DNA of 64,000 bases, from positions 561,064 through 625,063 of the forward strand of contig JALAHT010000001.1 in assembly GCA_025384855.1 (NCBI GenBank), given 5' to 3'. Source of the stretch: Luteirhabdus salina (GTDB taxonomy: Bacteria; Bacteroidota; Bacteroidia; Flavobacteriales; Flavobacteriaceae). How positions within the stretch are numbered: position 1 is the stretch's first letter; each line of letters starts with the position of its first letter. Of the stretch, positions 13,724-33,762 are shown in pieces. The notes beneath the pieces are model-generated. The model ran no database searches. It was not told the DNA's origin and was given only the letters and a program-made list of their open reading frames with translations. A program made the position numbers and the translations under genes.

Positions 13724-14938
13724 GTGATGATGACATTCCGAAATTCTTCCGATGAGAAGAAAACACCTACAACTATGAACGGTTTACAGCTATTTGGTTT
13801 AAGTCTCTTTGCAATGCTTTTCAGCGGATGTTTCTTCGGAAACGAAAATCCGGAGAACGATTTTTTTGAAGACGAGGCCTATTACGGAAAAGAAGAGGAA
13901 TACGTTGACGATAGCTCCTACAGAGAGCCTTTAGAACCAACACAGTCTTATCAAAATTCAACAAAAGAAAAGAAAATGGAAGCACAGGAAAAACTACGAA
14001 ATTTTGAAAACCGCGATCAGAAAACGGGCATGATATCTAGCACAATACCTTTTCCCGCTTCTTGGCGACAAATTCAAAATAACAACGAATGGACTTTTGA
14101 GGGACCAAACGGACTGAAAGTTAGCGGATCTTTTGGTCAGCAGTTTTTTTATGGCGGTCAGCCGAATCCCTACAGCGACAAGTATCGCAATCCGATGGGA
14201 ATTCAACAAATAATCGATGAATTCTTTATGCCCACGGCCCAGCGCACTCAGCGAACGCTAATATCCACCTACGAGCTTCCGAAAGTAGCAGCCGCCACCC
14301 AAGCCTTTCGGGACCAACTATGGCAATATGCCCCTACCCAAAAAACCACTAGAGCATATGGGATGGAATGGAAAGACCCCCAAGGGATGCACTATTTAAC
14401 AGTTTTAAATGTTACCGACGATCGCTCACCACTTGGAAACAATTGGATGTTTTACGGTCAGTTTATCCAAGCAAAAGCTGACGATTTCGAAGAAGCCAAA
14501 AAAGCATTTTTATATGGCATTATAAACACTAAGTATAACCCGCAATGGATTGCAGCCTTCAATCAGCGCGAACTACAACGGGCAAATATTAGTGATGCCG
14601 CGCATCGAAAAAGATTGGCAGCTATCAATGCACGTGGCCAAGCAACGCTCGACCTCGGGAAAACCTATAGTGAAATTTCCGATATCAGTCATGCCGGATA
14701 CCTTAATAGGAGTAATATGAATAGCCACGGACACAATAAAACCATTAGCGGTATAAACGAAACCGTTACCATCGCAAATCATGGTACTGGAGAGCATTAT
14801 AGTGTTCCAATGGGTACCAAACACTATTGGGTTTCAAATGATGGCACGTACTTTGGAACAAATAACACCCTATACAACCCTAATACCGATAAACGCATGT
14901 ATGATAAGGAATGGACACAATTTGAAGTTGAACAATAA
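13724..14938 (+). CDS. Hypothetical lipoprotein (Trp/Asn/Gln-rich). The true start may be the internal Met at 13775.
   Basis: Signal peptide with lipobox (LFAMLFSGC). No recognisable catalytic motif. Confidence 0.5.
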   Translation: MMMTFRNSSDEKKTPTTMNGLQLFGLSLFAMLFSGCFFGNENPENDFFEDEAYYGKEEEYVDDSSYREPLEPTQSYQNSTKEKKMEAQEKLRNFENRDQKTGMISSTIPFPASWRQIQNNNEWTFEGPNGLKVSGSFGQQFFYGGQPNPYSDKYRNPMGIQQIIDEFFMPTAQRTQRTLISTYELPKVAAATQAFRDQLWQYAPTQKTTRAYGMEWKDPQGMHYLTVLNVTDDRSPLGNNWMFYGQFIQAKADDFEEAKKAFLYGIINTKYNPQWIAAFNQRELQRANISDAAHRKRLAAINARGQATLDLGKTYSEISDISHAGYLNRSNMNSHGHNKTISGINETVTIANHGTGEHYSVPMGTKHYWVSNDGTYFGTNNTLYNPNTDKRMYDKEWTQFEVEQ

Positions 14939-14985
14939 CGGAATGATTTTAAAAAATATGTATCTTTCTTCCTCTGTTACAACCA

Positions 14986-15570
14986 ATGGGGAAGGTAAAA
15001 CATTTAGCGAAACAATCGCAACTCGTAGAGGCTGTAAAACGGAACGACGAACAGACGTTGCGCTCGCTCTATACCCAAAACTATTACAAGACCGAAAAAT
15101 ACGTGCTTCAAAACAGTGGCTCGAAACCGCAGGCCAAGGATATTTATCAGGAAGCTTTTATAACCGTTTGGAAAAATGTAAAAGCTGGAAAGTTCATCCC
15201 TAAAAACGACACAGCACTTCAGGGATACCTATTCCAAATTTCCAAAAACAAATGGTTGGATGTACTGCGCTCCTATCAATATCGAAAGACCCGCCAATTA
15301 GACACCAACTATCTTAATGTACATGAAGATGAAAACGCCATGGACACGGTAGAAGAAAAGCACACGAAGCAGAAACAACAACAACTTATCATAAAGGCCT
15401 TTTCCCAGTTGGGAGAGGACTGCCGACGTCTTTTAGAAGCATTTTATTTTGAAAAGCAAAGCATGCGAAATATTTCATCCCTATTCGAGATAACCGAAGC
15501 TTCTGCTAGAAATAAAAAATACAGATGTATTGAACGGTTGCGCGAATTAACAAACCTCCCCCCATCATGA
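14986..15570 (+). CDS. RNA polymerase ECF-type sigma-70 factor
   Basis: Sigma region 2 (LYTQNYYKT…YQEAFITVW) and region 4 HTH (ISSLFEITEASARNKKYRCIERLREL). Confidence 0.85.
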   Translation: MGKVKHLAKQSQLVEAVKRNDEQTLRSLYTQNYYKTEKYVLQNSGSKPQAKDIYQEAFITVWKNVKAGKFIPKNDTALQGYLFQISKNKWLDVLRSYQYRKTRQLDTNYLNVHEDENAMDTVEEKHTKQKQQQLIIKAFSQLGEDCRRLLEAFYFEKQSMRNISSLFEITEASARNKKYRCIERLRELTNLPPS

Positions 15571-16301
15571 AAAAGAAAATCGAAATATCCCAGGAAACCT
15601 TCGAACGAATCGAAGCGTATCTTTCGAATGAGCTGTCTGAAACTGAAGCGCTGAAATTCGAAAGCAGAATTAAATCCGATGCACAGTTTGCTACGCAAGT
15701 TGCGGAGGTAGAAGCTTTTCTAAACGCTATTGAAGTCGCAGCTTTAAAGCCGAAGTTAAACGACTACCATAGTGAAATTGCTACTAAAACAACTTCACAG
15801 GGCGGGAAAAATTATATAAAATATGCTGCCGCAGCCTCCATCATTTTGGCTATTGCACTCGTGTGGTTGTTTACGAAAACAAATCCACGGGAGGAATTAT
15901 ATGCTACCTACTATTCTCCCGATCCCGGCTTACCGACAATTATGAGTGCTACCTCTCAATTTGAGTTTTATGATGGAATGGTAAGCTACAAGCAGGGTAA
16001 TTATGAAGAAGCCCTATCGAAATGGCAACCTTTGGTCGAAGAAAAACCTGAGAACGACACCCTGAGCTACTTTATGGGAATGGCCCATATGGCCACCGAT
16101 GAAATAACGTCGGCACTTCTTTATTTGAACTCAACTATTGAAAAAACTACTTCTACCTTTTATTCGGAAGCTATCTATTACAAAGCGCTCGCTTTAGTAA
16201 AGGCTGCTAAGCTAAATGAAGCTATTCAGCTTTTGGCGGTGCATCCGTCAGATAAAAACCAATCGCTCTTAAACGCTATTCGTAAATTAAAAGATGAATA
16301 A
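15567..16301 (+). CDS. Putative anti-sigma factor (single-pass membrane protein with TPR-like periplasmic part)
   Basis: Start overlaps the sigma-factor stop by 4 nt (ATGA). One central TM helix (AAAASIILAIALVWLF). Assigned by position. Confidence 0.5.
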   Translation: MKKKIEISQETFERIEAYLSNELSETEALKFESRIKSDAQFATQVAEVEAFLNAIEVAALKPKLNDYHSEIATKTTSQGGKNYIKYAAAASIILAIALVWLFTKTNPREELYATYYSPDPGLPTIMSATSQFEFYDGMVSYKQGNYEEALSKWQPLVEEKPENDTLSYFMGMAHMATDEITSALLYLNSTIEKTTSTFYSEAIYYKALALVKAAKLNEAIQLLAVHPSDKNQSLLNAIRKLKDE

Positions 16302-19300
16302 ACGCTTCTTCACCTTAATGCTATTTATGATTCCCTATATAATTTGGGGGCAACATGATTCGCTAGTAGGGGTATCCAGAATGACCGAACTGGTGCAGGC
16401 AAAAAAAATTAAAGAAGCAAATACATACCTTGCGCAACAGCTTTCAAAATTCAAAAAAGAAGAAAAAGCTGATAGCATCGCCAAGTACATCGAATTCATC
16501 GGAAGCTTTTCACTTAACCAAGAAGATTGGGACCGTGCCTTAGAACGCACCAACAAATGGGTAACCTACATTTTAAGCTTTAATGACCCCTTCGCTTCAA
16601 AATATGCATACAAAGAATTAGCATGGGTACAAAGCGATGCCGGACGACCCGATCTTGCCTATCTTTCCGTAGAAAAAGCCTTGCATTTTGCAAAAAAGGA
16701 TAGCTCTAACGCACCGCCTACCGAGGACGATATGCACTATAATCTGGGATATTATGCCAGCAGTATGGGAAATTATGTAGCCTCTAAAAACCATTATCAA
16801 AAAAGCCTGGAAACATTTAATAAGCGGAAGGAAAAGAATTACGTATCGCTGCAACAGGTATACAATGCGTTAGGGGGAGTCATGTGGCGGGAAGGCAAAA
16901 TGGATAGCTGCCAGTATTATTTTCAAAAATCCTTGGAAGCTCTAAAGAAAACCGAGAACACCCCCGAAAACCAATACTACCGACCCGCACTTGTTATGAT
17001 GAATATGGCCGTTGTCTCTAATGTGCTGGGCAAAAATCAAGAAGCGATAGCGTATTCTCAAAAGGCCATCAACGATTTGAATGACTATATGGTTAATGGC
17101 ACCGACGAACAGCGTATCAGTGCAGCAGAAGCCAGCAAGTTTGCTGCTATCGATAATCTAGGGGCTTTCCATAATGCTGTTGGTGAATTTCGCAAAGCGG
17201 AAGAGCTTATCGAGTATTCCTATCAGCGTAAGCTCAAAACTCGAAATCCAAATGACCCCAATGTCATTATTTCAAAAATCTTACTTGCACAGGCGAAGTT
17301 AAACACCAGGGATTTAAACAATGCTTTGTATTTGGTTGAAGAAGTGCAACAACAAATCAATGAAAATCCTGCCATTCCTGAATATTGGAAAGGATCTGCC
17401 TTTACCACCTACGGAAAAATTTTGGAAGCCTTAAAACGACCTAAAGAGGCCGGACCTGCCTATGAAAAAGGTCGCGAACTATTCTTACAATCGCTTGGTG
17501 GAAACTACAACAACGACCTGCTCTCGGAAATTGCTAACATGGCGGTTTTCTATGCGAAAAACAACCAACGAAAAAAGGCCCTTGCCACTGCAGAAGAGTT
17601 ATACTCAGCGTCGAAAAAAAGTGAATTTCACAAAACCCAACAAGGTCTCCATTATATTTTGGCCGTAGCGGAAACCTATTTCCAACTCGGAGAATTTGAG
17701 AAAGCAAAATCGTTTTCACAAGAAGTAATCGATGCGATTGAAGTACCAAAACAGCAACAAAAAGTCTCGCCCGATGTTGTACTTAATAGCTTTCAATTGC
17801 CTCGGGCCATCTTAATCCATGCCCAATCTGAATATGCTTTACTTCCCGCAATAACCCTCTCCAAAATCAACCAGCTTTCAAATTCGCTAACCAACGCATT
17901 CGAAGTACTTCAATTACGGCAATCGTTCTTACAGAATTACGAGGATGTTCGTTTTTTGATTTCACAAAACACCGACCTTTTCAACTTTGCAAAAAAACTA
18001 CAACTCCAAGCCTATCAAAAATCGAAGGATTCAAAATATTTGGAAAAACTGATTCAATACCATGAATCGAGTATCTACAACCGAATTCGAGCCCGATTAG
18101 CTCTACGGGAATATCAGCCTTCCGATAAGCTTCCAGCAAGTATTCTTCAACAGGAATCAGAACTTAAAGCTAAACTTTCCAGCGCACTACAGAATTCTTC
18201 CGAAGAAGGGATTTCAACGTTCATCAAAGCTTCCAACGAATGGGAAACACTTCGCGAAACCCTGAAAACCGACTATCCCGATTATTTTTCATTGAAATAT
18301 GGATCCATTCTTCACGAGAAAAACGATTGGAAAAATGAAATTCCAGCCAATACCACATTGATTCGGTATCTTTTTGTAGAAGATGAATTATATTCGTTAG
18401 TCCTTACCAACAACAGCAGCACGCTTCAAAAACACACCACAAACAAGCTTTCCGAAACCATCGAAGCGCTACAGCAGCATTCCAATACTGTGGAAGCGTA
18501 TCGAGAGCCAATGTATATTTTATACGAACAGCTCTGGGGCACAATTGCCGATAACGTTGCCACAGAAGAGGTCATAATTATTCCAGACGGTCCCCTCTTC
18601 AACCTTAGCTTCGATCTTCTAACCAAAACCCCGATAGCCTCTTTTAAGGAATTAGCGACAAAAGGACTCTTGGCCAACCATTGCATTTCATACGAACCCA
18701 GTCTTTATATGTTGCAAAACGGTACAGCCGAAGTACCTCAAGAAAGATTTGTAGCCTTCGCTCCGACCTTCGATGCTGAAATGAAGGTACGATATAAGAA
18801 TGCACAAAAGGATTCTACCGCTATCGACAAAACCTATCTTACATTACTTCCGCAGCCGTTCATTCGTGAAGTCGCGGAGAAATATAGCAAATTGTTTCGG
18901 GGGACGGCCTACCTTAACGATGACGCTTCGAAAATGCGATTTTTATCGGAAGCAGACCAACATAGCATCATTCATATTGGCACCCATGCGGAAAGCAATA
19001 ATGTAAGTCCAGAGCTTTCGCGACTAATTTTTGCCAAAGGCGAATCATCAGAAACGGTATCAGAAGAGAATTCCCTATATGCCTACGAGCTTTACAATTA
19101 CGAACTTTCATCCGAACTCGCCATATTAACGGCTTGTGAAACGGGAAAGCCTTCTTATCAGCCTGGGGAGGGAATGCTTTCCTTAACCCATGCCTTCACC
19201 CATGCTGGCAGTCAGAGTATTCTAACCAGCCTATGGAATGTAGACGAAAAGTCGAGTGCGGCTATCGTTGCAGCTTTCTACGATCATCTGGCCGACGGTG

Positions 19301-19518
19301 TCCCAAAAAATAAAGCGTTGCAGTTGGCAAAACTCGAATACCTTTCACAGGCAAAGGGACGCGTACAAGCGCCTCCCTATTGGGCAGGATTGATTTTAAT
19401 GGGTAATACCGAACCGCTAAAAATGACATTAGATCATTCCAACTGGATTCTTTATGGAGGAATCCTTTTAATAGTTATTGGACTTCTTTTTTGGCTGTGG
19501 AGACGCAAAAAAGCTTAA
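16294..19518 (+). CDS. TPR-repeat / CHAT-domain (caspase-like protease) protein with C-terminal TM anchor
   Basis: N-terminal TPR-like helical repeats. C-terminal CHAT fold with His (…SIIHIGTHAESN…) and Cys (…LAILTACETGK…) dyad. Terminal TM helix (ILYGGILLIVIGLLFWLW). Overlaps the anti-sigma stop. Confidence 0.8.
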   Translation: MNKRFFTLMLFMIPYIIWGQHDSLVGVSRMTELVQAKKIKEANTYLAQQLSKFKKEEKADSIAKYIEFIGSFSLNQEDWDRALERTNKWVTYILSFNDPFASKYAYKELAWVQSDAGRPDLAYLSVEKALHFAKKDSSNAPPTEDDMHYNLGYYASSMGNYVASKNHYQKSLETFNKRKEKNYVSLQQVYNALGGVMWREGKMDSCQYYFQKSLEALKKTENTPENQYYRPALVMMNMAVVSNVLGKNQEAIAYSQKAINDLNDYMVNGTDEQRISAAEASKFAAIDNLGAFHNAVGEFRKAEELIEYSYQRKLKTRNPNDPNVIISKILLAQAKLNTRDLNNALYLVEEVQQQINENPAIPEYWKGSAFTTYGKILEALKRPKEAGPAYEKGRELFLQSLGGNYNNDLLSEIANMAVFYAKNNQRKKALATAEELYSASKKSEFHKTQQGLHYILAVAETYFQLGEFEKAKSFSQEVIDAIEVPKQQQKVSPDVVLNSFQLPRAILIHAQSEYALLPAITLSKINQLSNSLTNAFEVLQLRQSFLQNYEDVRFLISQNTDLFNFAKKLQLQAYQKSKDSKYLEKLIQYHESSIYNRIRARLALREYQPSDKLPASILQQESELKAKLSSALQNSSEEGISTFIKASNEWETLRETLKTDYPDYFSLKYGSILHEKNDWKNEIPANTTLIRYLFVEDELYSLVLTNNSSTLQKHTTNKLSETIEALQQHSNTVEAYREPMYILYEQLWGTIADNVATEEVIIIPDGPLFNLSFDLLTKTPIASFKELATKGLLANHCISYEPSLYMLQNGTAEVPQERFVAFAPTFDAEMKVRYKNAQKDSTAIDKTYLTLLPQPFIREVAEKYSKLFRGTAYLNDDASKMRFLSEADQHSIIHIGTHAESNNVSPELSRLIFAKGESSETVSEENSLYAYELYNYELSSELAILTACETGKPSYQPGEGMLSLTHAFTHAGSQSILTSLWNVDEKSSAAIVAAFYDHLADGVPKNKALQLAKLEYLSQAKGRVQAPPYWAGLILMGNTEPLKMTLDHSNWILYGGILLIVIGLLFWLWRRKKA

Positions 19519-20054
19519 TTCGACACGTTTTTAAGTAATGTCAAGACCTTTTTCATCGTTCTATAATTTCGTGTGGTAGCTGTCACTTTCAGCTTCTTCT
19601 CAAAATAATTGTTGTTGAATTTGGCGCGCCCATAGCCGTTCTCGGGATAGAAATAAATACATGTTTCTGCAATGATAAATTCTTCTTCTTTGGAAGCTTC
19701 CGAAGCAATAGCCGTTCTTTCTACGGAATTTGGAATGGCGTGAAGCAAGGTGAAGTAACTATTCTCTTTTTTTTCTTGCGAAAAGGGACAGTGCTTTACA
19801 ATAGCTGCTATTTCTGAAGTGGTTTTAATCAGGATTGGAACTTCCCAACCATATTTTTCCGAAATGGCAGTTTGTATTTCGGAAGTGGCTTCTTTTGAAG
19901 TTTTTTGTGTTTGAAAAACGACATTTCCAGTTTGGAGATAAGCCCGATTATTTTTGTAGCCCAAGGCTGAAAACAATCGTTCTTGGTCGGACATCGAAAA
20001 TTTCTTCTGCCCTCCAACATTTATTCCCCTTAAAAAGGCCACGTAGGTATTCAT
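19515..20054 (-). CDS. DUF1697 domain protein
   Basis: N-terminus MNTYVAFLRGINVGGQKKFSM matches the DUF1697 consensus start. Confidence 0.65.
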   Translation of the reverse strand: MNTYVAFLRGINVGGQKKFSMSDQERLFSALGYKNNRAYLQTGNVVFQTQKTSKEATSEIQTAISEKYGWEVPILIKTTSEIAAIVKHCPFSQEKKENSYFTLLHAIPNSVERTAIASEASKEEEFIIAETCIYFYPENGYGRAKFNNNYFEKKLKVTATTRNYRTMKKVLTLLKNVSN

Positions 20055-20455
20055 CAGTTCTTCTGGCGCATTTCAGCTTTTCGCATCGGCATGTTATCTA
20101 TTTTTGAAAAGAAAACGCTTGCGGGTTCGGGACGATTCGATTGATATTTTTCACCCCCATCCAAACCGATTAGTGTAATTTGAAAATCTTCTCCTACGGC
20201 AATTTCACTTTCACCAGTAACTTCAGTATTGAAGTTTGTTTTATACCCCTCAGATGTTACGTGGTAAATGACCAACTTTCGGTCTTTCAATCCTGACATT
20301 TTCTTTTTCAACATAGTAAGTTGTCGTTGTGCAAGATGATTATCGAAGGTTTCAGAGGTTATGACCAATAAACGGTCGTTCCATTGGTGCTTGGTGAGGT
20401 TTTGGGAAAACATAGCAAATGAAATAAAAAATAATAGTAGGGAAAGCATTTTCAT
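20054..20455 (-). CDS. DUF4174-like secreted protein
   Basis: Signal peptide plus small conserved core. Weak family recollection. Confidence 0.4.
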   Translation of the reverse strand: MKMLSLLLFFISFAMFSQNLTKHQWNDRLLVITSETFDNHLAQRQLTMLKKKMSGLKDRKLVIYHVTSEGYKTNFNTEVTGESEIAVGEDFQITLIGLDGGEKYQSNRPEPASVFFSKIDNMPMRKAEMRQKN

Positions 20456-23272: not shown

Positions 23273-24745
23273 CTATCGAACAACCAACTTTCGGATGGCC
23301 GCCTCGGTATCAGTTTCAAAACGGATAAAGTAAACGCCTGCAGCTACAGGAAGGTTCACCGTATTTTCACCACTAACGACCGCTACTTCAAATACATTCT
23401 TCCCTGTAACATCATAGACGGAAAGCGTTTCAAAGCCTACCATATTATCGAAATTGATGGTTCCTTTGGAAGGATTCGGATAGAAGCTAAAGTCTTGTAA
23501 GATTTCATCTTCAACAGAAAACTCTGCACAGCTAATTGGATCAAAAATTACTTCACCCAAAGAACTATCGTCGGGTTGATGAAAGATTACTTCTTCCGCA
23601 TCGGCTAAAGAATTCGGGGCATCATTTTCTTTCCAACAGTTATTTTTCGCCTGAATCGTATTTGGTGTGTTGTTGTATAAAGCAAAGGTTTGACCACTGT
23701 TTTCATTTTCGGAAAAGATGTTATCCCCAGAATTGTTTACTTCATCACCCAAGTTGATTGATGCTTCCCCTTGTAGCGTAATGCCCCAAAGGTTTCTGCG
23801 AATTTCATTTCCTTGCGCAATCACTTCCATTCCGCCAGAAGATGTATTAAGGTTAATACCACTTCCACCTAGGTTAGGATCGCCTTGGGTGTTATTGTCT
23901 TCAATCACATTAAAACGCATATAGGCGAACGAATTATTCCCTAGCATGGTAATTCCATACCGGTTGTCGGTAATAACATTATCATCAATTATCGCTCGGA
24001 TGTTGCCACCAACAAAGTTTGCAATGGCAATTCCCCCCACTTGGTCAAGGGCAGGATCGCCTTTAATCGTGTTTTGAATAATCTTTAGTGAATCGTTCAC
24101 TTTCGTGATTCCCAAATTGATTTGCGGACGGTTGCTATTCTCTTGTGTATTCCCTTCAATATAATTGTTGAAGATGTAGGGTGAAACTTCAATATTGGCA
24201 CCCGATGAAATCGCCGGCAACTGATTAAAAGTTATCGTATTATTCGTGATTTGTGGTACTCCCCGAGAAAGGGAAATGGTTCCGCCGGTAGTAGCACCTT
24301 CTACATTGTTTGTCAACGTACAGTTATTTAAGGTGAAGGTTTCGGTCAACACTCGCAATCCACCCCCAAATTGGATGGTACTGTTTTGAATATTGATCTC
24401 TGAGAATTCCTCGAAGCGAAATCCTTCGTATGGTGCTGCTTCATCGATGGCAGTAAAGGTGACATCATCGGCCGTAACCTCAAATGTTCCAAATACCGTA
24501 ATCAAGAGATCGGCATCGATGGATAAGGTTAGGTCTTCATCGATAATTACTGTATCGGAAGCGGCAATTTCAAGATTTTCCAACAACTCGTATTGATCGC
24601 CACTAACCGTAATCGTACTCGGGCTCGCATTCGCGATATCGTCGAGCGTCCAAACGACTCCAGTATCGGGAGTTGTAAACGTCTGTGCCAATAAAACAGC
24701 TGGCGTAATAAATAGTAAAAGGAGTAAAAAAGTATTCTTTTTCAT
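23273..24745 (-). CDS. T9SS-secreted protein with right-handed parallel beta-helix repeats and C-terminal Por sorting domain. Start taken at MKKNTFLLLLLF (signal peptide).
   Basis: Signal peptide. Beta-helix-type Asn/Gly/Thr-rich repeats. C-terminal about 80 aa with T9SS CTD character (…FYPNPSKGTINF…LSVYDVTGKNVF…GVYFIRFETD…). Confidence 0.75.
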   Translation of the reverse strand: MKKNTFLLLLLFITPAVLLAQTFTTPDTGVVWTLDDIANASPSTITVSGDQYELLENLEIAASDTVIIDEDLTLSIDADLLITVFGTFEVTADDVTFTAIDEAAPYEGFRFEEFSEINIQNSTIQFGGGLRVLTETFTLNNCTLTNNVEGATTGGTISLSRGVPQITNNTITFNQLPAISSGANIEVSPYIFNNYIEGNTQENSNRPQINLGITKVNDSLKIIQNTIKGDPALDQVGGIAIANFVGGNIRAIIDDNVITDNRYGITMLGNNSFAYMRFNVIEDNNTQGDPNLGGSGINLNTSSGGMEVIAQGNEIRRNLWGITLQGEASINLGDEVNNSGDNIFSENENSGQTFALYNNTPNTIQAKNNCWKENDAPNSLADAEEVIFHQPDDSSLGEVIFDPISCAEFSVEDEILQDFSFYPNPSKGTINFDNMVGFETLSVYDVTGKNVFEVAVVSGENTVNLPVAAGVYFIRFETDTEAAIRKLVVR

Positions 24746-24902
24746 GATTTTATTGAATTTTTTCCAAAAATACGTACTCATGTTGCAGTACCCAATGAAT
24801 TCCCTAAAAAGATTAAGGGTTGAAGTGAAGTTTCCTCTTAAATTTTTCTCAAATTGAAGGGTGTGGTTTAACAAGGTCAAAAAATCCCCGTACTTTTAAA
24901 GA

Positions 24903-25958
24903 ATGGAAATCGTACTATACGTCCTTACCGTATTTTTTATCGTTACGCCATACCTGCCAGCCACCGAGCATCCGCATTGGTTTTATCGGATGCCCGATTT
25001 TGTGCGACTGCAAACCATTGGGATACAGCTATTGCTAATCGTATTATTTTTCTTCATAATACAACCGTGGCACTTAGCCGACTACATCATGGTGGCAGCA
25101 TTGCTGGTTACCCTAATTTATCAAATTGTAAAAGTATTTCCCTACAGCAAGTTGTATCCAAGGCAAAAACCCGATTTTGAAAGCGGGGGTTGTGTTTCCA
25201 TCTTGGCCGGTAATGTTTTTCAGGACAACCACAGCTACGATAAGTTTATTGCAGAAGTAAAACGATTCGATCCAGATATGGTATTGACGATGGAGTCTGA
25301 CCAGAAATGGGAAGATGGTTTGAGCGAATTAGAAGAAACCTATCCCCATACAACCAAGATTCCGTTGGATAATTATTACGGAATGCATCTTTACAGCAAA
25401 ATTGCCCTAAAGAATTTGGAGGTTCATTATCATGTTGAAGACGACATACCTTCTATTTTATTCGAATGCCCCGTAACCGAAGCCCAAGATGTATTCTTTG
25501 CCTGTTTGCATCCTGCCCCACCAAGTCCGACTGAAAATGAAACCTCGAAGGAGCGCGATGCTGAGTTGATGATGGTAGGTAAAAAGATTCGTGAAATGAA
25601 AAAACCAGTGGTGGTGTGTGGCGACATGAATGATGTGGTTTGGAGTAGAACAACACGATTGTTCAAAAAAATGACGGCTATGATCGACCCGCGTATCGGA
25701 CGCGGTTTCTTTCCTACCTACCATGCGGGATATCGATTAATGCGGTTCCCTCTCGACCATTTGTTCCATACCAAGGATTTATTTGTGAAGACGATGATCC
25801 GTAGTAACAACTTCGACAGCGATCATTTTGCGATGTATTACGAAATTCACTTACGTGCGGGTAGAGGACCTGAAACGAAAGGCGAATTGGATACAGAGGA
25901 AAAACATGAAGTGGAGGAAAAGATTGAAGAGGGCATTGAAAAAACCAAAGAATCTTAA
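24903..25958 (+). CDS. Endonuclease/exonuclease/phosphatase (EEP) family membrane-anchored hydrolase
   Basis: N-terminal TM helices. EEP C-terminal motifs (…DHLFHTKDL…SDHFAMYYE). Confidence 0.7.
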   Translation: MEIVLYVLTVFFIVTPYLPATEHPHWFYRMPDFVRLQTIGIQLLLIVLFFFIIQPWHLADYIMVAALLVTLIYQIVKVFPYSKLYPRQKPDFESGGCVSILAGNVFQDNHSYDKFIAEVKRFDPDMVLTMESDQKWEDGLSELEETYPHTTKIPLDNYYGMHLYSKIALKNLEVHYHVEDDIPSILFECPVTEAQDVFFACLHPAPPSPTENETSKERDAELMMVGKKIREMKKPVVVCGDMNDVVWSRTTRLFKKMTAMIDPRIGRGFFPTYHAGYRLMRFPLDHLFHTKDLFVKTMIRSNNFDSDHFAMYYEIHLRAGRGPETKGELDTEEKHEVEEKIEEGIEKTKES

Positions 25959-28900
25959 TTTCTATCCAATCCCTTTTCCAAAACCGAACGAATGCCTTCT
26001 AAATTAGTACTAAATTCCATCATCTGAAGCAGCAGTTGTGCCATTTCATTTTTATCACCCAATCCCTTTAGTTTATTGTTCTTTTCAAAGGTTTCCTTAA
26101 TAGATTCCCATCGCTCCTTTTCTTCAGCCGTGAGTGTTCCTCGCAATTCTCTAAATTTCAAAAGGTTTGCTTCTGCGGAAGCATTTAGCGTTTGGGCTTC
26201 ACTTTCATAATGTGAAAGAAGGAGTGTATCGATTTCCTTTGTATTCATAATCGGTACAACTTTCGCCACCAACTTATTCATATCCCGATAAGAGCCTTGA
26301 AGCTTGAAAGGGGGTTCGGTTCGATACGCATCTTCCATAGCAGCACTTTTGATGTATGTTTTATTTACGGCTAACACTGTTTCACGCACCATGACAATTT
26401 TTTCCAATACCGATTCGTAGTCCTTTACTTCCTGCGAACTATAGTTCCCAAGTAATTGACCATCGGCTGTATGGTTTTCAACCCGATCCAATAAGGTATA
26501 GAAATCTTCAAAGTGAACGCTGCTTAATTGGTGCATCAGCGGATTTGAGGTTAGTGCGTTTTCAACCAAACTCAGTTTAAACAGATGTTCGGTATCCCCG
26601 ATAATATCTCCCAAATTGTAAATATCGGCCCGGTTTGCTAACATATCTGGTATCTGGAATTTTTCACCACTTTCCGTATACGGGTTTCCCGCCATCACCA
26701 CGCAGAACTTTTTTCCGCGTAAATCATAGGTTTTCGATTCGCCTTTATGAACCCCCTCAATTTTTCGGGTTCCATCAGAAAGAGATATAAATTTCTGCAG
26801 AAATTCGGGACTACAGTGTTGGATATCATCCAAGTAAAGCATCACGTTATTCCCCATCTCAAAAGCGAGGTTCAGTCGCTTTAATTCTTCTCGGGCGGCA
26901 CTGTTAGTCGCTGCCATGGGGTCGACAGAGGTAACTTCATGACCGATGGCCGGACCGTTAATCTTCACAAATACCAACCCGAGTCTATTGGCAATGTATT
27001 CCATCAAGGTTGTCTTACCATATCCTGGTGGTGAAATGAGCAGCAGCATTCCCATTCGGTCCGTTCGCTTGGCATCGCCTACAGTTCCCAACTGCTTCGA
27101 CAAATTATCGCCAATCAACGGCAAGTACACTTGGTCTATCAGTTTGTTACGTACGAAGGAGGTAAGCACTCTAGGCTTAAATTCTTCAAGCTTTAAGTTC
27201 TTCTTCATCTGCTCTATAACAGCATGTTTCGTCTTACGGAAATGTTCGAAAGCCGGCACCTTTTCACCTAAGAAGATAGCCATTGAATTCATGAATTCAT
27301 GGTAATCGAATTGGAATGCTCCCTCCTTAATAGTTTCATGACTACCTTTTAGGTTTTTGATAGTTGCGGTAGGCGATGCATTTTTGGTGGCTGAAACTGA
27401 GGCATCTTCAAAAATGATTGCACAAACTACCTCATCGATATACTTGCGATGCGTAGCGAGGTTCTCCGTAGCCGAAGTACTTTTGATATATGCCGAAACC
27501 CACTGACGAACCAATCGGATTTTAGCCTCGTATGATGATGCCTCTTCATAGCCTTTCTTAAATTTGATATCGGCCTGTTGTTTCTTTAAGGCTTTTTGGA
27601 AGTTATCACTTAGTGTCCCTGCTTCCGCGCTCTGGATAAATGTTGCATCACCTTGCAATTCCTCAAAAATGTATTGAGCGATATTTTTGGTCATTACAAC
27701 ATCAAAAAGCGGAGCTTCCTGCAGGAAAACTTCAATCTGACGACAAATTTTTTCAATAATATAATCATATTCAGCGCTGTTGGGAAAACATTGAATAACC
27801 ACTCCAGAAGCTTTTATAGCGCGGTCTAGTATGCCGCGATGTTGCGCCTTCATTCCATGCCAAAAGAATTGCGCATTGGCTCTGATCTCTGGGTGAAATT
27901 TTAATAATCCTAAATCGAGATGTTTTTGAATCAGCACTTGTAAAATTGCCGTCGCATCATGATCGTGAACTCCCTTGATGTATCCTTCCGCATACGATTC
28001 TCTACTCAGGTTTTGAACAAACTGGAGCAGTTCGCCATCGTTGTGGTGAAGTGTATCTTCATTACTTACTTTCGCAAAAGCCTTGTACGCTAGGTACGCG
28101 CCTCGATATACCGCCTTGTTTTCCGAGATATACTCTTGTTCCCACAAGTCAGCGGATTCCAAAAGGGTTTCATCGGTGATGCTTTCATAATAGTCCGTTC
28201 CGGTGAGGTGGGCCTGCAAGCCCTCTTTTTTGTGAACGATAGTAAGGTCTAACGGTTGTCGGTTTACACCAAATTTATGACTACCCAATCGAATAACATT
28301 TTCACCATCCTCATACAGTTCGTTCTTATCCTTTAGTTTTCGCAACGCTTCTTCGCGAGCGGTTTTCAATTTGGTTTCAATGGCTTCCGCTTTTCCACTA
28401 TCCTCCATTTCACGAAGCTTCTGAATAATGTCGCGTACCTTATTCACCATTAGGTCAGAAGCAAAATATCCATTCACTTCAGCACCGGTAGTGAAACGCT
28501 CTGCCTTTTTCTGAACACCATTTAGGATACGCGTTGCGGCACTTTCAAAAGCAACGGCTTTTTTGTTTCGCTTTTCAACCAATGCATTTTTCTGGGCTTC
28601 GAAAGCGGCATACACCTCTTCCCTTTTTTCGATAATCACTTCAATAAAAGCTTCGAAATCGGCAAACTTCCCTTCCAATTCCTCTAGCTGAACCGAAATC
28701 TTATTTTGAAATTCATCACATTTCTCCGGCGTGGCAGCCATATCGAGATAATTGATGATACTTTGGTCGATAAGCTTCAGTTGCGCCGCAAAATCGGCTT
28801 CGGCCTCGGCTTTAACCAAAGACTTCCGCTTGTTTTTCAAGCTTGCTTTCAACTGATTGATAGAAGCGAAGATTAAGGAAATATCATCGATAATCTTGGT

Positions 28901-30847
28901 GCTCTGAGCAGTATCTTCAATGGAAAGATTTGAAACAATGTCGATCAACATTTCAAGTCCCTCCGCAATCTCATTAATTTCAGCTTCTAGCTTTTTAGCT
29001 TCGGTAACCTTCGACACTTTTTGAAGCATCTTTTCCTTTTCGGCCACGGCATCCTGATATGGTTGAAGCGCTTTCGGATTCAATAGAAATTGAACACAGC
29101 GCTCTGAAATCCGTTCTGTTTGCGTAGCGATTTCTTCCTCTAGCGATTCGGCGAAAGAAATCTCGACATACCGGATGTCCTTCAAGGAGATTGTTTCTCC
29201 CCTCACGCCCCTTAACTTCGACAAGGCCTGCACATACTCCTGAATCGATCGAAAAGAAGTGCTTTTTATCTTTCCGAATAAATCCTCAACTTTTTTAGAA
29301 ACCTCCTGCGAAGCATTCTTGGCCTTTTTCTTCAGTTGCTGAACCTTTTCGAACTCCTCGATTGCAGCATTCGCTGCATCATTTATTTCACCTAAAGGCT
29401 CATTAAGTTTCTTGGTCTCTGGCTCTGGCAACCAATAGTAGGCGTCCAGGATATCCTTCGAAAACTTTGCAATATCGCTATAAAGACTTTGGTAACTATC
29501 TTCTTTGTTCAATAGCGTAATTAGCCCATTAATTTCAGCCATCGCCTTCACGATATCCTTGTTACCGATTTTATACAGCAAACTATCCTCGTGTTGCGAT
29601 GGCATATAATCGCCCTTCAAAAAAGGTGTTTGCCAAATCTGAATAACGTGATGCTTGGTCTGTTCGGCCTCCGTCTTAAAGTAACACAATTCACCTTGCT
29701 CTAAAATGGTGAATCCATTACAGATAATCGGCGTTTTAATTTCTTGTGAAATGACGTTATACGCCATCAGATTATAAAGGCTTTTATCTGGCGCATAAAA
29801 GACATATAGAAAATCTTCCCCATTGGGAGAAACAATCTTTTCCTGAAACTGGACATTGGGAATGGCATTATCGAAAATGGAATACTCCCCTGTCTGAAGG
29901 TAATATCCCGTTGGAAAAATAATGCCTTGATCGTCTGGCAGCAATACACAGGTATCCTTAATACTTTCAATCTTTTGTACTTCCTTGATTTTATGGTTGT
30001 ATACAAAATATCGTGGAGGTTCCTGAAAGGGTTTTATTTCTAATACCACTAGGTTGCCAAGGTTTGCATAACGATATTGACCGTCATCTAGGGTTTGATC
30101 CTTATGCTCGACACCTTCCGAAAAAATACCCTTGCCATCTTCGGTATTGTCCTCAATTTTTATGGTTAGGTCACCACCGACGGTTTCTACGAATACTTTA
30201 TCCAAAATGGATACATGTGGGTGTACGCCATAACGATGCATATCTCGTGTAACCTCCTGCCAATTGAATTCGTGTTGCGCTGGAAACGTATACTCATGAT
30301 CGCTTCGGTTATCGACATAGGACAACGAATCGTCCTTTATCAACCACTTGAAGGTCTTGATATCCGATGTACTCTCACTTAATTGAAATACCATATACAG
30401 ATAGTTTCCAATTATCGAAAACTTCGAGAATATGGTATTCCGGTAATATTTATAAAGATTGGTGAAATCGGTAATAAAGGTTTCGTCCTGCAGCATTTCC
30501 ATAGGCAGCGGTTCGAACCTATTATCCTTAAAGCGGTATAAACTGAAGACATCGTCTAGGGTGATATCTGTTCGAAGACCGAAATGGACATTATAACCAA
30601 ATAAACACGTATTTCCTAGTGAAACGATATCGCGCGCAATACAGTTATTTTCAGTATTGATGCGATCGTTGGCCACCAACTTCGTTTCCAGCGAGCCAAA
30701 AACCGTCTTGCGCTCGTCGTTGAGCGCTTGCAGGCGATTCTGCAGCGTTTGTTTCTGCTTCTGAAGGCGATTCTGAATGATTTCATAGGTACCACCATCA
30801 AGCGTAGGGTTTTGCTGTACTTTTTGTTCGTCGGATGTTGATGCCAT
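25955..30847 (-). CDS. Giant (1630 aa) coiled-coil protein with a single C-terminal MoxR/AAA_5-type ATPase module. Sometimes carried in annotations as 'DNA repair ATPase-like'.
   Basis: Walker A (LISPPGYGKTT), Walker B (VMLYLDDIQH), MoxR-like sensor segment (VVMAGNPYTESGEKFQIPDMLANRADIY). About 500 aa of heptad-rich coiled coil in the middle. Intergenic spacing suggests co-transcription with the flotillin, NfeD-like, PspA and YbjN-like genes downstream. Confidence 0.8.
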   Translation of the reverse strand: MASTSDEQKVQQNPTLDGGTYEIIQNRLQKQKQTLQNRLQALNDERKTVFGSLETKLVANDRINTENNCIARDIVSLGNTCLFGYNVHFGLRTDITLDDVFSLYRFKDNRFEPLPMEMLQDETFITDFTNLYKYYRNTIFSKFSIIGNYLYMVFQLSESTSDIKTFKWLIKDDSLSYVDNRSDHEYTFPAQHEFNWQEVTRDMHRYGVHPHVSILDKVFVETVGGDLTIKIEDNTEDGKGIFSEGVEHKDQTLDDGQYRYANLGNLVVLEIKPFQEPPRYFVYNHKIKEVQKIESIKDTCVLLPDDQGIIFPTGYYLQTGEYSIFDNAIPNVQFQEKIVSPNGEDFLYVFYAPDKSLYNLMAYNVISQEIKTPIICNGFTILEQGELCYFKTEAEQTKHHVIQIWQTPFLKGDYMPSQHEDSLLYKIGNKDIVKAMAEINGLITLLNKEDSYQSLYSDIAKFSKDILDAYYWLPEPETKKLNEPLGEINDAANAAIEEFEKVQQLKKKAKNASQEVSKKVEDLFGKIKSTSFRSIQEYVQALSKLRGVRGETISLKDIRYVEISFAESLEEEIATQTERISERCVQFLLNPKALQPYQDAVAEKEKMLQKVSKVTEAKKLEAEINEIAEGLEMLIDIVSNLSIEDTAQSTKIIDDISLIFASINQLKASLKNKRKSLVKAEAEADFAAQLKLIDQSIINYLDMAATPEKCDEFQNKISVQLEELEGKFADFEAFIEVIIEKREEVYAAFEAQKNALVEKRNKKAVAFESAATRILNGVQKKAERFTTGAEVNGYFASDLMVNKVRDIIQKLREMEDSGKAEAIETKLKTAREEALRKLKDKNELYEDGENVIRLGSHKFGVNRQPLDLTIVHKKEGLQAHLTGTDYYESITDETLLESADLWEQEYISENKAVYRGAYLAYKAFAKVSNEDTLHHNDGELLQFVQNLSRESYAEGYIKGVHDHDATAILQVLIQKHLDLGLLKFHPEIRANAQFFWHGMKAQHRGILDRAIKASGVVIQCFPNSAEYDYIIEKICRQIEVFLQEAPLFDVVMTKNIAQYIFEELQGDATFIQSAEAGTLSDNFQKALKKQQADIKFKKGYEEASSYEAKIRLVRQWVSAYIKSTSATENLATHRKYIDEVVCAIIFEDASVSATKNASPTATIKNLKGSHETIKEGAFQFDYHEFMNSMAIFLGEKVPAFEHFRKTKHAVIEQMKKNLKLEEFKPRVLTSFVRNKLIDQVYLPLIGDNLSKQLGTVGDAKRTDRMGMLLLISPPGYGKTTLMEYIANRLGLVFVKINGPAIGHEVTSVDPMAATNSAAREELKRLNLAFEMGNNVMLYLDDIQHCSPEFLQKFISLSDGTRKIEGVHKGESKTYDLRGKKFCVVMAGNPYTESGEKFQIPDMLANRADIYNLGDIIGDTEHLFKLSLVENALTSNPLMHQLSSVHFEDFYTLLDRVENHTADGQLLGNYSSQEVKDYESVLEKIVMVRETVLAVNKTYIKSAAMEDAYRTEPPFKLQGSYRDMNKLVAKVVPIMNTKEIDTLLLSHYESEAQTLNASAEANLLKFRELRGTLTAEEKERWESIKETFEKNNKLKGLGDKNEMAQLLLQMMEFSTNLEGIRSVLEKGLDRN

Positions 30848-30967
30848 AGGGCAATTGAAATTACTTCGGTTTCACTTTAAAAAATGGGAATAGTAGCTAT
30901 ATGAAACTATCCATAAACAGCGCTAACGGCCTTCCGCAATACACGGAAGGCTGCTACGCCACTTCAC

Positions 30968-33034: not shown

Positions 33035-33049
33035 AAAGCAAATTTGGTT

Positions 33050-33760: not shown

Positions 33761-33762
33761 GT

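What the first reader, a model, noticed from the sequence alone, without database searches (positions are those of the whole stretch)
14986..19518. ECF sigma / anti-sigma / membrane-anchored TPR-CHAT (caspase-like protease) module
Seen in sequence:
- Three translationally coupled genes (stop/start overlaps).
- They encode an ECF sigma factor, a single-pass anti-sigma-like protein, and a 1074-aa protein.
- The large protein has N-terminal TPR repeats, a CHAT domain with an intact His/Cys dyad (IHIGTHAESN / LTACETGK) and a C-terminal TM anchor.

Established knowledge:
- CHAT domains are caspase-family proteases.
- TPR-CHAT proteins act as effector proteases in type III-E CRISPR (Craspase) and other conflict systems.

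Inference:
- Here the protease is hard-wired to a sigma/anti-sigma pair.
- This suggests regulated proteolysis controlling the sigma factor, e.g. cleavage of the anti-sigma factor, or a stress/defence output.
- The trigger and substrate are unknown.
Basis: partly seen in the sequence, partly recalled or inferred. Interest (0 to 1): 0.6.

Follow-up and report, generated by a model that had tools for sequence, protein, structure and literature searches.

The report
Sigma switch with periplasmic caspase-like protease
A conserved gene cluster in marine Flavobacteria links a gene-switch protein (ECF sigma factor) and its membrane-bound inhibitor to a caspase-like protease that faces the periplasm, most likely so that cutting the inhibitor turns the switch on; a fused version is known from one myxobacterium, but I found no description of this split, widespread form.

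Summary
Three overlapping genes at 14986-19518 encode an ECF sigma factor, a single-pass anti-sigma-like TPR protein and a 1074-aa TPR-CHAT protein. The His898/Cys948 dyad is invariant in 47 homologues, down to 18% identity.

The protease body is therefore periplasmic, in the same compartment as the anti-sigma TPR domain.

Both refutation tests were run and passed. Of 57 judgeable metagenomic loci, 51 (89%) keep the sigma/anti-sigma pair next to the CHAT gene, in colinear, convergent and other orientations. All four divergent anti-sigma homologues checked also have an adjacent CHAT gene.

The anti-sigma family has a very conserved motif, PDPGLPTxM[S/G], about 16 residues outside the membrane. 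It is a candidate cleavage site. A Mog1/PsbP-fold lipoprotein (13724-14938) is a frequent fourth partner.

Best reading: a split, trans-acting counterpart of Myxococcus DdvS/DdvA, with CHAT as the site-1 protease of the anti-sigma factor. This mechanism is inferred, not shown. The neighbourhood is housekeeping genes, not defence genes.

Verdict: new variant of a known kind, moderately interesting.

The parts
13724..14938 (+). Probable lipoprotein, 404 aa by the ORF call; the real start is probably the ATG at 13775 (MNGLQLFGLSLFAMLFSGC...). Frequent fourth partner of the module. Core has a Mog1/PsbP-like fold, followed by a long helix and a small C-terminal beta domain with conserved His and Asp residues.
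14961..14968 (+). TATCTTTC box about 18 nt upstream of the sigma start codon. It resembles the Bacteroidota housekeeping -7 promoter element TAnnTTTG.
   Evidence: Conserved in the window and L001-L006. TAnnTTT[CG] occurs in 21 of 39 sigma upstream regions against 12% of background windows. The full TTTG-N17-21-TAnnTTT[CG] occurs in 5 of 39 against 0.5%. The consensus itself is from my own knowledge.
14986..15570 (+). ECF (group IV) sigma-70 factor, 194 aa
   Evidence: TIGR02937 1.6e-20 (73.4 bits, cutoff 42.9); Sigma70_r2 1e-7; r4_2 2.7e-4, below cutoff. Best solved relative is M. tuberculosis SigL, 1.3e-7.
15567..15815 (+). Anti-sigma-like protein, N-terminal cytoplasmic helical domain (aa 1-83). 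Sequence pattern IExYLxxxLxxxExxxFE resembles helix 1 of class I anti-sigma domains but has no zinc ligands.
   Evidence: NF052375 'antisigma' E=0.0057, below cutoff. zf-HC2 E about 0.1 in 3 of 15 members; RslA 3hug_B E=1.3, not significant. 0 of 135 family members have HxxxCxxC.
15816..15872 (+). Single transmembrane helix of the anti-sigma-like protein (aa 84-102), oriented N-in / C-out
   Evidence: Hydropathy. Family mean is 3.0 K/R in the 15 aa before the TM helix against 0.9 after it. All 135 full-length representatives have one TM helix at aa 60-115.
15918..15947 (+). Juxtamembrane periplasmic motif PDPGLPTIMS (aa 118-127), 16 residues after the TM helix. Candidate recognition or site-1 cleavage site; suggested scissile bond Met126|Ser127.
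   Evidence: Among the three most conserved 10-residue windows in 60 sequences. Present in 110 of 135 cluster representatives, with D, G and L in 110/110 and M in 109/110. The other subclade has STLPTVR[S/N] or xxR[S/G] at the same place. The cleavage role is an inference.
15954..16286 (+). Periplasmic TPR domain of the anti-sigma-like protein (aa 130-240)
   Evidence: TPR_19 8.1e-7 and other TPR models; consensus-TPR structures in the PDB.
16294..16353 (+). Signal peptide of the TPR-CHAT protein (aa 1-20; predicted cleavage before Gln20, the Bacteroidota 'Q-rule')
   Evidence: Hydrophobic N-terminus followed by small-residue-then-Gln in 54 of 63 family members. The Q-rule is from my own knowledge.
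16372..18333 (+). Helical TPR array of the CHAT protein (aa ~27-680), predicted periplasmic
   Evidence: TPR_12 8e-23. AF2 model is all-helical here with pLDDT mostly above 85.
18520..19407 (+). CHAT caspase-like protease domain (Pfam envelope aa 743-1038). Catalytic His898 is at 18985-18987 and Cys948 at 19135-19137.
19438..19515 (+). C-terminal transmembrane anchor (aa 1049-1070) plus basic cytoplasmic tail RKKA
   Evidence: Hydropathy. Conserved in P0001-P0065. Family mean is 3.7 K/R in the tail against 0.6 before the TM helix.

Best explanation
This is an envelope signalling module in which a periplasmic caspase-like protease controls an ECF sigma factor.

Proposed arrangement: the sigma factor is held at the inner membrane by the single-pass anti-sigma-like protein, whose N-terminal domain is cytoplasmic. 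That protein's C-terminal TPR domain lies in the periplasm. The whole TPR-CHAT body lies there too: it is exported by a signal peptide and tethered by a C-terminal TM helix.

Proposed sequence of events:
1. A periplasmic signal, probably a protein or peptide bound by the long TPR array, arrives. The Mog1/PsbP-fold lipoprotein may take part.
2. The His898/Cys948 site cuts the anti-sigma protein in trans in its juxtamembrane linker. The candidate site is PDPGLPTxM|S, about 16-25 residues outside the membrane. This is a site-1 cleavage.
3. An RseP-type site-2 protease and cytoplasmic proteases then free the sigma factor.

In effect this is a split, two-polypeptide counterpart of Myxococcus DdvA.

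Shown here: the gene architecture, the predicted topology, the intact and invariant dyad, the TPR-CHAT fold, the strong rearrangement-tolerant gene linkage, and the conserved motif.

Inferred: sigma binding by protein 2, cleavage of protein 2 by CHAT, the cleavage site, the site-2 step, the signal and the regulon.
For: - Tight coupling. Overlaps are 4 and 8 bp in the window. Across 46 colinear loci the median gap from the anti-sigma stop to the CHAT start is 3.5 nt, and 39 of 46 gaps are 20 nt or less.
- Linkage from the CHAT side. 51 of 57 judgeable metagenomic loci carry the pair: 38 colinear, 3 cut by the contig end, 6 convergent and 4 elsewhere within 6 kb. It also holds in L006-L008, at 24-34% CHAT identity with different flanks.
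- Linkage from the anti-sigma side. 4 of 4 divergent homologues have an adjacent CHAT gene.
- Same compartment. Signal peptide plus C-terminal TM helix on CHAT, and an N-in TM helix on the anti-sigma protein; the positive-inside rule holds for both families.
- Conserved juxtamembrane motif in the anti-sigma family.
- Precedents. DdvA is a periplasmic TPR-CHAT fused to an anti-sigma factor; removing that domain exposes DdvA to RseP (PMC11506125). Csx29 CHAT cleaves Csx30, an inhibitor of an ECF-type sigma factor (PMC10028731). The DdvA paper's text states that a Craspase cuts after Met.
Against: - No cleavage, binding or expression data exist for this module.
- Homology of the N-terminal domain to known anti-sigma domains is not statistically significant.
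- Six judgeable loci lack the pair. In L044 and L083 the CHAT gene sits with lipoprotein-family genes only, so CHAT can evidently function without a neighbouring pair.
- In the divergent clade CHAT lies in a separate, convergent transcription unit, often with a subtilisin-like S8 peptidase. That layout suits CHAT as an output equally well.
- Catalysis by the DdvA CHAT domain has itself never been demonstrated.
- An attempt to find active-site changes matching the Met-type and Arg-type motifs was uninformative.
Confidence: 0.45

Rival explanations
1. CHAT is an output or independent effector, not the regulator. The sigma/anti-sigma pair senses envelope conditions through its own TPR domain and switches on or accompanies a periplasmic proteolytic machine. 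That machine would be TPR-CHAT with the lipoprotein or an S8 peptidase, and its substrates would be other envelope or secreted proteins such as T9SS cargo.
For: - In the divergent clade CHAT is in a separate, convergent unit, with an S8 peptidase directly upstream (L008, L013, L014).
- In L007 the sigma gene and the T9SS-cargo gene next to CHAT share a long upstream motif, which suggests a common sigma-dependent promoter.
- L044 and L083 have CHAT with lipoprotein-family genes but no sigma/anti-sigma pair.
- T9SS cargo genes lie nearby in L006, L007 and the window.
Against: - In the main clade CHAT is translationally coupled directly to the anti-sigma gene. That is typical of interacting partners made in fixed ratio.
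- That operon appears to have a housekeeping-type promoter rather than an ECF-type one.
- The conserved juxtamembrane motif in the anti-sigma protein has no explanation under this model.
Confidence: 0.25
2. CHAT is a sensor or protective partner rather than the site-1 protease. Its TPR array binds the anti-sigma TPR domain or motif and shields it, as RseB shields RseA. A signal, or CHAT self-processing, releases it. A different protease (Prc/Ctp-type, DegS-like, or the S8 peptidase) then makes the site-1 cut.
For: - Both proteins carry periplasmic TPR interaction domains.
- An S8 peptidase accompanies CHAT in three divergent loci.
- In DdvA the bulky TPR-CHAT domain was shown to block RseP, whereas CHAT catalysis was not shown, and dyad mutants behaved like wild type in unstimulated cells.
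Against: - An invariant His/Cys dyad across 47 sequences, down to 18% identity, argues that catalysis is under selection.
- The main clade has no second protease gene in the module.
Confidence: 0.15
3. It is an anti-phage sensor like DdvS/DdvA. The periplasmic TPR-CHAT detects a phage component and the sigma factor switches on defence genes located elsewhere in the genome.
For: DdvS/DdvA is the one characterised sigma/anti-sigma/TPR-CHAT system, and it controls a CBASS-CRISPR island (PMC11506125). CHAT proteases are common in conflict systems (established knowledge).
Against: - PADLOC finds no defence family, only a weak generic TPR hit.
- Flanking genes are housekeeping: mevalonate pathway, UbiA, pseudouridine synthase, DUF1697 and a flavoprotein.
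- The module sits at a stable syntenic chromosomal position across Flavobacteriaceae, which is unlike a defence island.
Confidence: 0.05

Closest known systems
[quoted passage not shown]
   Same: - An ECF sigma factor and a single-pass N-in anti-sigma factor.
- A periplasmic TPR array followed by a CHAT domain with a canonical His/Cys dyad.
- A flexible juxtamembrane linker as the proposed cleavage target.
- An RseP-type second step is proposed.
   Different: - Here the anti-sigma and TPR-CHAT parts are two polypeptides. CHAT has its own signal peptide and a C-terminal TM anchor, so any cleavage would be between proteins in trans rather than within a dimer.
- The N-terminal domain lacks zinc ligands.
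- There is no CBASS or CRISPR neighbourhood.
- It occurs in Bacteroidota, whereas the authors found DdvA-like proteins only in Myxococcota and one Comamonas.
Type III-E CRISPR Craspase: Csx29 (TPR-CHAT) / Csx30 / CASP-sigma (PMC10028731)
   Same: - A TPR-CHAT protease acting in trans on a separate protein that inhibits an ECF-type sigma factor.
   Different: - Craspase is cytoplasmic, bound to Cas7-11 and activated by target RNA.
- The window has no cas genes. Its protease is exported and membrane-anchored, and the inhibitor is a transmembrane TPR protein unrelated to Csx30.
Classical regulated intramembrane proteolysis of anti-sigma factors (E. coli RseA/DegS/RseP with RseB; B. subtilis RsiW/PrsW/RasP)
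   Same: - A single-pass anti-sigma factor and a periplasmic site-1 cut near the membrane that licenses a site-2 protease.
- A possible accessory periplasmic protein; the lipoprotein here could play a role like RseB.
   Different: - The proposed site-1 protease has a caspase (clan CD) fold and a huge TPR sensor array, and it is encoded in the same operon.
- DegS is a serine protease and PrsW a metalloprotease, and both are encoded elsewhere in the genome.
Separase and other clan CD proteases (gingipains, HetF)
   Different: Separase is a eukaryotic cytoplasmic/nuclear enzyme controlled by securin, and gingipains are secreted virulence proteases. None is genetically coupled to a sigma/anti-sigma pair.

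Membership tests
ECF (group IV) sigma-70 factors | [quoted passage not shown] | tested here: met
   194 aa. TIGR02937 scores 73.4 bits (cutoff 42.9). Sigma70_r2 scores 32.1 bits (cutoff 24). Sigma70_r4_2 scores 21 bits, below its 25.7 cutoff.
ECF (group IV) sigma-70 factors | Assignment to a numbered ECF group (ECF Hub / Casas-Pastor 2021 classification) | not testable with these tools
   No ECF-group HMMs were available. The paper's main text never mentions CHAT, and its supplement is not held.
Class I anti-sigma factors (ASD / zf-HC2 type) | N-terminal anti-sigma domain homologous to known ASDs | tested here: inconclusive
   NF052375 E=0.0057, 16.7 bits against a cutoff of 100. zf-HC2 E about 0.1 in 3 of 15 members. 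RslA 3hug_B E=1.3. The sequence pattern resembles ASD helix 1.
Class I anti-sigma factors (ASD / zf-HC2 type) | Gene immediately downstream of, and co-transcribed with, the ECF sigma gene; single-pass membrane protein with a cytoplasmic N-terminus | tested here: met
   4-bp overlap with the sigma gene. The median sigma-to-anti-sigma gap is -1 nt in 46 loci. One TM helix; K/R bias of 3.0 before it against 0.9 after it.
Class I anti-sigma factors (ASD / zf-HC2 type) | Binds and inhibits its cognate sigma factor | not testable with these tools
   Needs a pull-down, a two-hybrid assay or a complex prediction; no multimer modelling was available.
CHAT domain / clan CD caspase-like cysteine proteases | Match to PF12770 above the gathering score | tested here: met
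   131.1 bits against a cutoff of 24, E=7.4e-38, profile positions 7-289 of 289.
CHAT domain / clan CD caspase-like cysteine proteases | Catalytic His and Cys present and conserved | tested here: met
   H898 and C948 are invariant in the 47-sequence alignment A2, whose members are 18-52% identical to the window protein.
CHAT domain / clan CD caspase-like cysteine proteases | TPR-CHAT / caspase-hemoglobinase fold | tested here: met
CHAT domain / clan CD caspase-like cysteine proteases | Proteolytic activity | not testable with these tools
   Needs biochemistry.
DdvA-type TPR-CHAT anti-sigma factors | Anti-sigma domain, TM helix and periplasmic TPR-CHAT on one polypeptide | tested here: not met
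   Two separate ORFs in different reading frames with their own start and stop codons. The split is conserved in all 46 colinear loci.
DdvA-type TPR-CHAT anti-sigma factors | TPR-CHAT located in the periplasm | tested here: met
   By prediction only: signal peptide, C-terminal TM helix with a basic tail, and the positive-inside rule.
DdvA-type TPR-CHAT anti-sigma factors | [quoted passage not shown] | tested here: not met
   The window protein's N-terminal domain (aa 1-83) has no Cys and only one His, at aa 68, so it has no HxxxCxxC motif. 0 of 135 family members have HxxxCxxC.
DdvA-type TPR-CHAT anti-sigma factors | Embedded in and regulating a CBASS/CRISPR defence island | tested here: not met
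   PADLOC finds no defence family for the four proteins. The neighbours are housekeeping genes. The regulon itself is unknown.
Type III-E Craspase (Cas7-11 / Csx29 / Csx30 / CASP-sigma) | Genetic association with Cas7-11 (gRAMP) and a CRISPR array; cytoplasmic protease | tested here: not met
   No cas-like neighbours. The only ORF of comparable size in the window is a DUF3686 ATPase. The protease has export and anchor signals. The window was not scanned specifically for CRISPR repeats.
RIP-controlled ECF pathways (DegS/RseP type) | Site-1 cleavage in the periplasmic part of the anti-sigma factor, followed by S2P cleavage | not testable with these tools
   Only a candidate motif was found. The presence of an RseP homologue in this genome was not examined.

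The most novel reading that the evidence does not exclude
A large Bacteroidota family of ECF signalling modules uses a dedicated, operon-encoded, membrane-tethered periplasmic caspase-fold (TPR-CHAT) protease as the trans-acting site-1 protease of its anti-sigma factor. The protease would cut at a conserved PDPGLPTxM|[S/G] (or xxR|[S/G]) juxtamembrane motif, and a Mog1/PsbP-fold lipoprotein would act as co-sensor or inhibitor. This would be the first caspase-like site-1 protease in regulated intramembrane proteolysis. It would also be the natural two-component version that makes the unproven DdvA self-cleavage model directly testable in vitro.
Probability: 0.4. Interest if true: 0.7.

Novelty: new variant of a known kind. 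Interest (0 to 1): 0.55.

Why it matters
How a periplasmic signal destroys an anti-sigma factor is known for only a handful of protease types. In 2024 a caspase-like CHAT domain was proposed, but not shown, to do this by self-cleavage in Myxococcus DdvA, and that architecture was reported as rare.

The module here splits the same parts into substrate and enzyme, which makes the idea testable with two purified proteins. It also carries a sharply conserved candidate cleavage motif. The family is common: the anti-sigma profile gave 2,706 hits among 50%-identity cluster representatives at E<=1e-30, some of which are unrelated giant TPR proteins.

If the model holds, it adds a new protease class to regulated intramembrane proteolysis. 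It would also define an uncharacterised envelope-sensing pathway in abundant marine Flavobacteria, and show that the CHAT-to-sigma-factor logic of Craspase and DdvA extends beyond phage defence.

Tried and rejected
- **Single-sequence PDB search of the CHAT protein.** It found only TPR proteins. The full-length profile was swamped by TPR hits. Fold search was needed instead.
- **Homology of the anti-sigma N-terminus to known anti-sigma domains.** A profile of the N-terminus against the PDB and Pfam gave only sub-significant hits. The label therefore rests on architecture and gene position.
- **Pattern search of metagenomes with the anti-sigma alignment A1.** The survey was run from the CHAT side instead.
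- **ECF-type (-35 GAAC / -10 CGT-like) autoregulated promoter upstream of the sigma gene.** No consistent bipartite ECF motif was found. A Bacteroidota housekeeping-like -33/-7 promoter is enriched instead.
- **Covariation between the Met-type and Arg-type anti-sigma motifs and CHAT active-site residues.** Only 2 Arg-type pairs have a full-length CHAT protein, and 64 columns separate the groups, so the test is confounded by phylogeny and uninformative.
- **P0322 (506 aa) as a possible sigma/anti-sigma fusion.** Its N-terminal half is not a sigma factor; it looks like a tandem duplication.
- **Weak LPXTG-anchor hit at the CHAT C-terminus** (16.1 bits against a cutoff of 15.9). There is no LPXTG motif, so the hit reflects only the TM helix plus basic tail. 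A cleavable C-terminal sorting signal cannot be excluded.
- **More distant TPR-CHAT proteins** (L009 with the contig cut; L010 and L011 with tandem CHAT paralogues). None has an adjacent pair, so the linkage is a property of this clade and not of all TPR-CHAT proteins.
- **Context look-up for the Maribacter halichondriae anti-sigma homologue.** It failed because there was no exact record.
- **The ECF reclassification paper.** The main text has no mention of CHAT and the supplement is unavailable.

Full report
**Observation.** They overlap by 4 bp (ATGA) and 8 bp. Protein 1 is an ECF sigma factor (TIGR02937 73.4 bits, cutoff 42.9; Sigma70_r2 above threshold). Protein 2 has one TM helix at aa 84-102 and a C-terminal TPR domain. 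Protein 3 has TPR_12 (8e-23) and a full-length CHAT domain (PF12770, 7.4e-38, aa 743-1038), with a C-terminal TM helix. The quoted dyad contexts are His898 and Cys948. The window is 100% identical at protein level to 'Flavobacteriaceae bacterium TK19130' and 97% identical to Luteirhabdus pelagi.

The CHAT protein begins with a hydrophobic signal peptide ending ...IWG|Q. A small residue followed by Gln occurs at this position in 54 of 63 family members; this is the Bacteroidota 'Q-rule' for signal peptidase I substrates, which I cite from my own knowledge. Its C-terminal TM helix is followed by a basic tail: the family mean is 3.7 K/R after the helix against 0.6 before it. In the anti-sigma family the bias runs the other way, 3.0 K/R before the TM helix and 0.9 after. 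The predicted arrangement is therefore as follows. The sigma factor and the anti-sigma N-terminal domain are in the cytoplasm. The anti-sigma TPR domain and the whole TPR-CHAT body are in the periplasm. CHAT is tethered to the inner membrane by its C-terminus.

- From the CHAT side, five genome loci at 47-97% identity are colinear. Loci at 34%, 24% and 28% identity (L006, L007, L008) still carry the sigma and TPR-anti-sigma genes next to CHAT. They have different flanking genes, and in L007 and L008 the pair is convergent to CHAT.
- From the anti-sigma side, four divergent homologues (L012-L015) all have a ~195-aa gene overlapping upstream and a TPR-CHAT gene adjacent, convergent in three loci and colinear in one. 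That upstream gene is confirmed as a sigma factor by my locus-trained HMM only for L012, L013 and L015, and by a weak Sigma70_r2 hit for L015. The L014 copy was not confirmed.
- In a survey of 80 metagenomic loci fetched with CHAT patterns and scored with HMMs built from the above, 57 were judgeable. Of these, 38 are colinear, 3 are colinear with the sigma gene cut off by the contig end, 6 are convergent, 4 have the pair elsewhere within 6 kb, and 6 have none. That is 51 of 57, or 89%.
- In 46 colinear loci the anti-sigma stop and the CHAT start are a median of 3.5 nt apart.
- The 80 loci are the best of at least 575 relatives, so the rate describes the nearer part of the family.
- More distant TPR-CHAT proteins (L010, L011) occur as tandem paralogues without an adjacent pair. 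The linkage is therefore specific to this clade.

**The anti-sigma-like protein.** Homology of its N-terminal 80 residues to known anti-sigma domains is not significant (NF052375 E=0.0057; zf-HC2 E about 0.1; RslA E=1.3). The pattern IExYLxxxLxxxExxxFE resembles helix 1 of class I anti-sigma domains, and no member has the zinc motif (0 of 135). The label therefore rests on gene position, translational coupling to the sigma gene, and architecture.

An exhaustive HMM search found 2,706 representatives of 50%-identity clusters at E<=1e-30. Of the 146 top hits not already in hand, 135 are full-length 215-290-aa proteins, each with a single TM helix at the same place. The most notable feature is a short linear motif about 16 residues outside the membrane, P-D-P-G-L-P-T-x-M-[S/G]. 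It is present in 110 of those 135, with D, G and L in 110/110 and Met in 109/110. It ranks among the three most conserved stretches of the protein. The divergent subclade has STLPTVR[S/N] or xxR[S/G] at the same position.

**Context and expression.** The neighbours are housekeeping genes: mevalonate kinase and decarboxylase, UbiA, pseudouridine synthase, DUF1697 and a flavoprotein. The position is syntenic across Flavobacteriaceae. PADLOC finds no defence family. A conserved TATCTTTC box about 18 nt upstream of the sigma start, often preceded by TTTG about 19 nt further up, resembles the Bacteroidota housekeeping promoter. It occurs in 21 of 39 sigma upstream regions against 12% of background windows. 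This suggests constitutive expression with post-translational control.

**Mechanism.** The best-supported reading is a split counterpart of DdvS/DdvA. The periplasmic TPR-CHAT protease, on sensing a periplasmic ligand, cuts the anti-sigma factor in trans in its juxtamembrane linker. An RseP-type protease and cytoplasmic proteases then release the sigma factor.

Two precedents support this:
- DdvA has a periplasmic TPR-CHAT whose removal exposes it to RseP. Self-cleavage at the linker is proposed but unproven (PMC11506125).
- Csx29 CHAT cleaves Csx30 to relieve inhibition of an ECF-type sigma factor (PMC10028731).

I put 0.45 on this specific mechanism. I am much more confident, roughly 0.85, that the genes form one functional signalling unit containing an active periplasmic protease.

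The rivals are:
- CHAT as an output or effector acting on other envelope proteins (0.25). This is favoured by the convergent S8-CHAT units, the shared upstream motif in L007 and the loci without a pair.
- CHAT as a protective or sensor partner, with another protease making the cut (0.15).
- A DdvA-like phage-defence role (0.05). The genomic context disfavours this.

**Novelty.** Five full-text searches combining CHAT with sigma, anti-sigma or ECF terms found only the DdvA and Craspase work. The DdvA authors report DdvA-like proteins only in Myxococcota and one Comamonas. The main text of the ECF reclassification paper does not mention CHAT, and its supplement could not be read. Prior listing as an ECF group context therefore cannot be excluded. 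I classify the module as a new variant of a known kind.

**Limits.**
- Every mechanistic step beyond architecture, topology prediction, conservation and gene linkage is inference.
- No multimer modelling was available.
- The taxonomy of most metagenomic loci is unknown. The named members are all Flavobacteriaceae.
- ORF starts in the survey were taken as the first possible start codon.

Noticed in passing
window 25955-34479 (- strand): A 1630-aa protein with DUF3686 ('ATPase involved in DNA repair'), DUF7902 and AAA/AAA_5 domains. Upstream of it on the same strand are a 688-aa protein with no Pfam hit and two ~237-aa ORFs. This may be a multi-gene system of unknown function.
   Followed up: no
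window 36375-37589 (+), GC dip at 36-38 kb: A tyrosine integrase (Arm-DNA-bind_5, Phage_int_SAM_5, Phage_integrase) sits at a drop to 33% GC, followed by an RND efflux operon (AcrB-like, 38228-41980). This is probably the edge of an integrated element.
   Followed up: no
L007: upstream of 7810 (- strand) and upstream of 1753 (+ strand): The regions upstream of the ECF sigma gene and of the CarboxypepD_reg/Por_Secre_tail (T9SS cargo) gene next to the CHAT gene share a long motif: GGTTACTTTT-N-GTATAAATTGGAATTAAT against GGTTACTTTTCGTGATATTAAGGAATTAAT. This is a candidate shared sigma-dependent promoter and a hint at the regulon.
   Followed up: partly
L008 4032-5501; L013 9823-11484; L014 6782-8146: In the divergent clade a subtilisin-like Peptidase_S8 gene lies directly upstream of the TPR-CHAT gene on the same strand. 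It may be an alternative fourth component or a second protease in the pathway.
   Followed up: partly
L044 4726-9240; L083 4180-10249: CHAT genes accompanied only by genes of the lipoprotein family: one directly upstream in L044, and two weak paralogues downstream in L083. Neither locus has a sigma/anti-sigma pair within 6 kb. This suggests the lipoprotein is tied to the protease itself.
   Followed up: partly
L010, L011, L040, L094, L095: Tandem arrays of two to four TPR-CHAT paralogues. L011 (Fodinibius-like; its CHAT proteins lack the C-terminal TM helix) also has an ECF sigma gene plus an anti-sigma-like TPR gene about 3 kb downstream.
   Followed up: no
L012 6736-9821; L015 6789-9842; L045, L071: In several loci the CHAT gene is split into two ORFs, a TPR part and a CHAT part. 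These may be frameshifts, pseudogenes or assembly errors.
   Followed up: no
P0322 (506 aa, representative library): It appears to be a tandem duplication of the anti-sigma-like protein within one ORF. It has three matched stretches, and the best covers residues 253-504.
   Followed up: partly
window 19515-20455 (- strand): DUF1697 and DUF4174 genes run convergent to the CHAT gene. The DUF1697 stop codon overlaps the CHAT stop by 4 bp. DUF1697 keeps this position in L001, L016 and L017, but is absent in L003 and L005.
   Followed up: no
window 23273-24880 (- strand): A 535-aa T9SS cargo protein (Por_Secre_tail) with no other recognisable domain lies about 4 kb downstream of the module.
   Followed up: no
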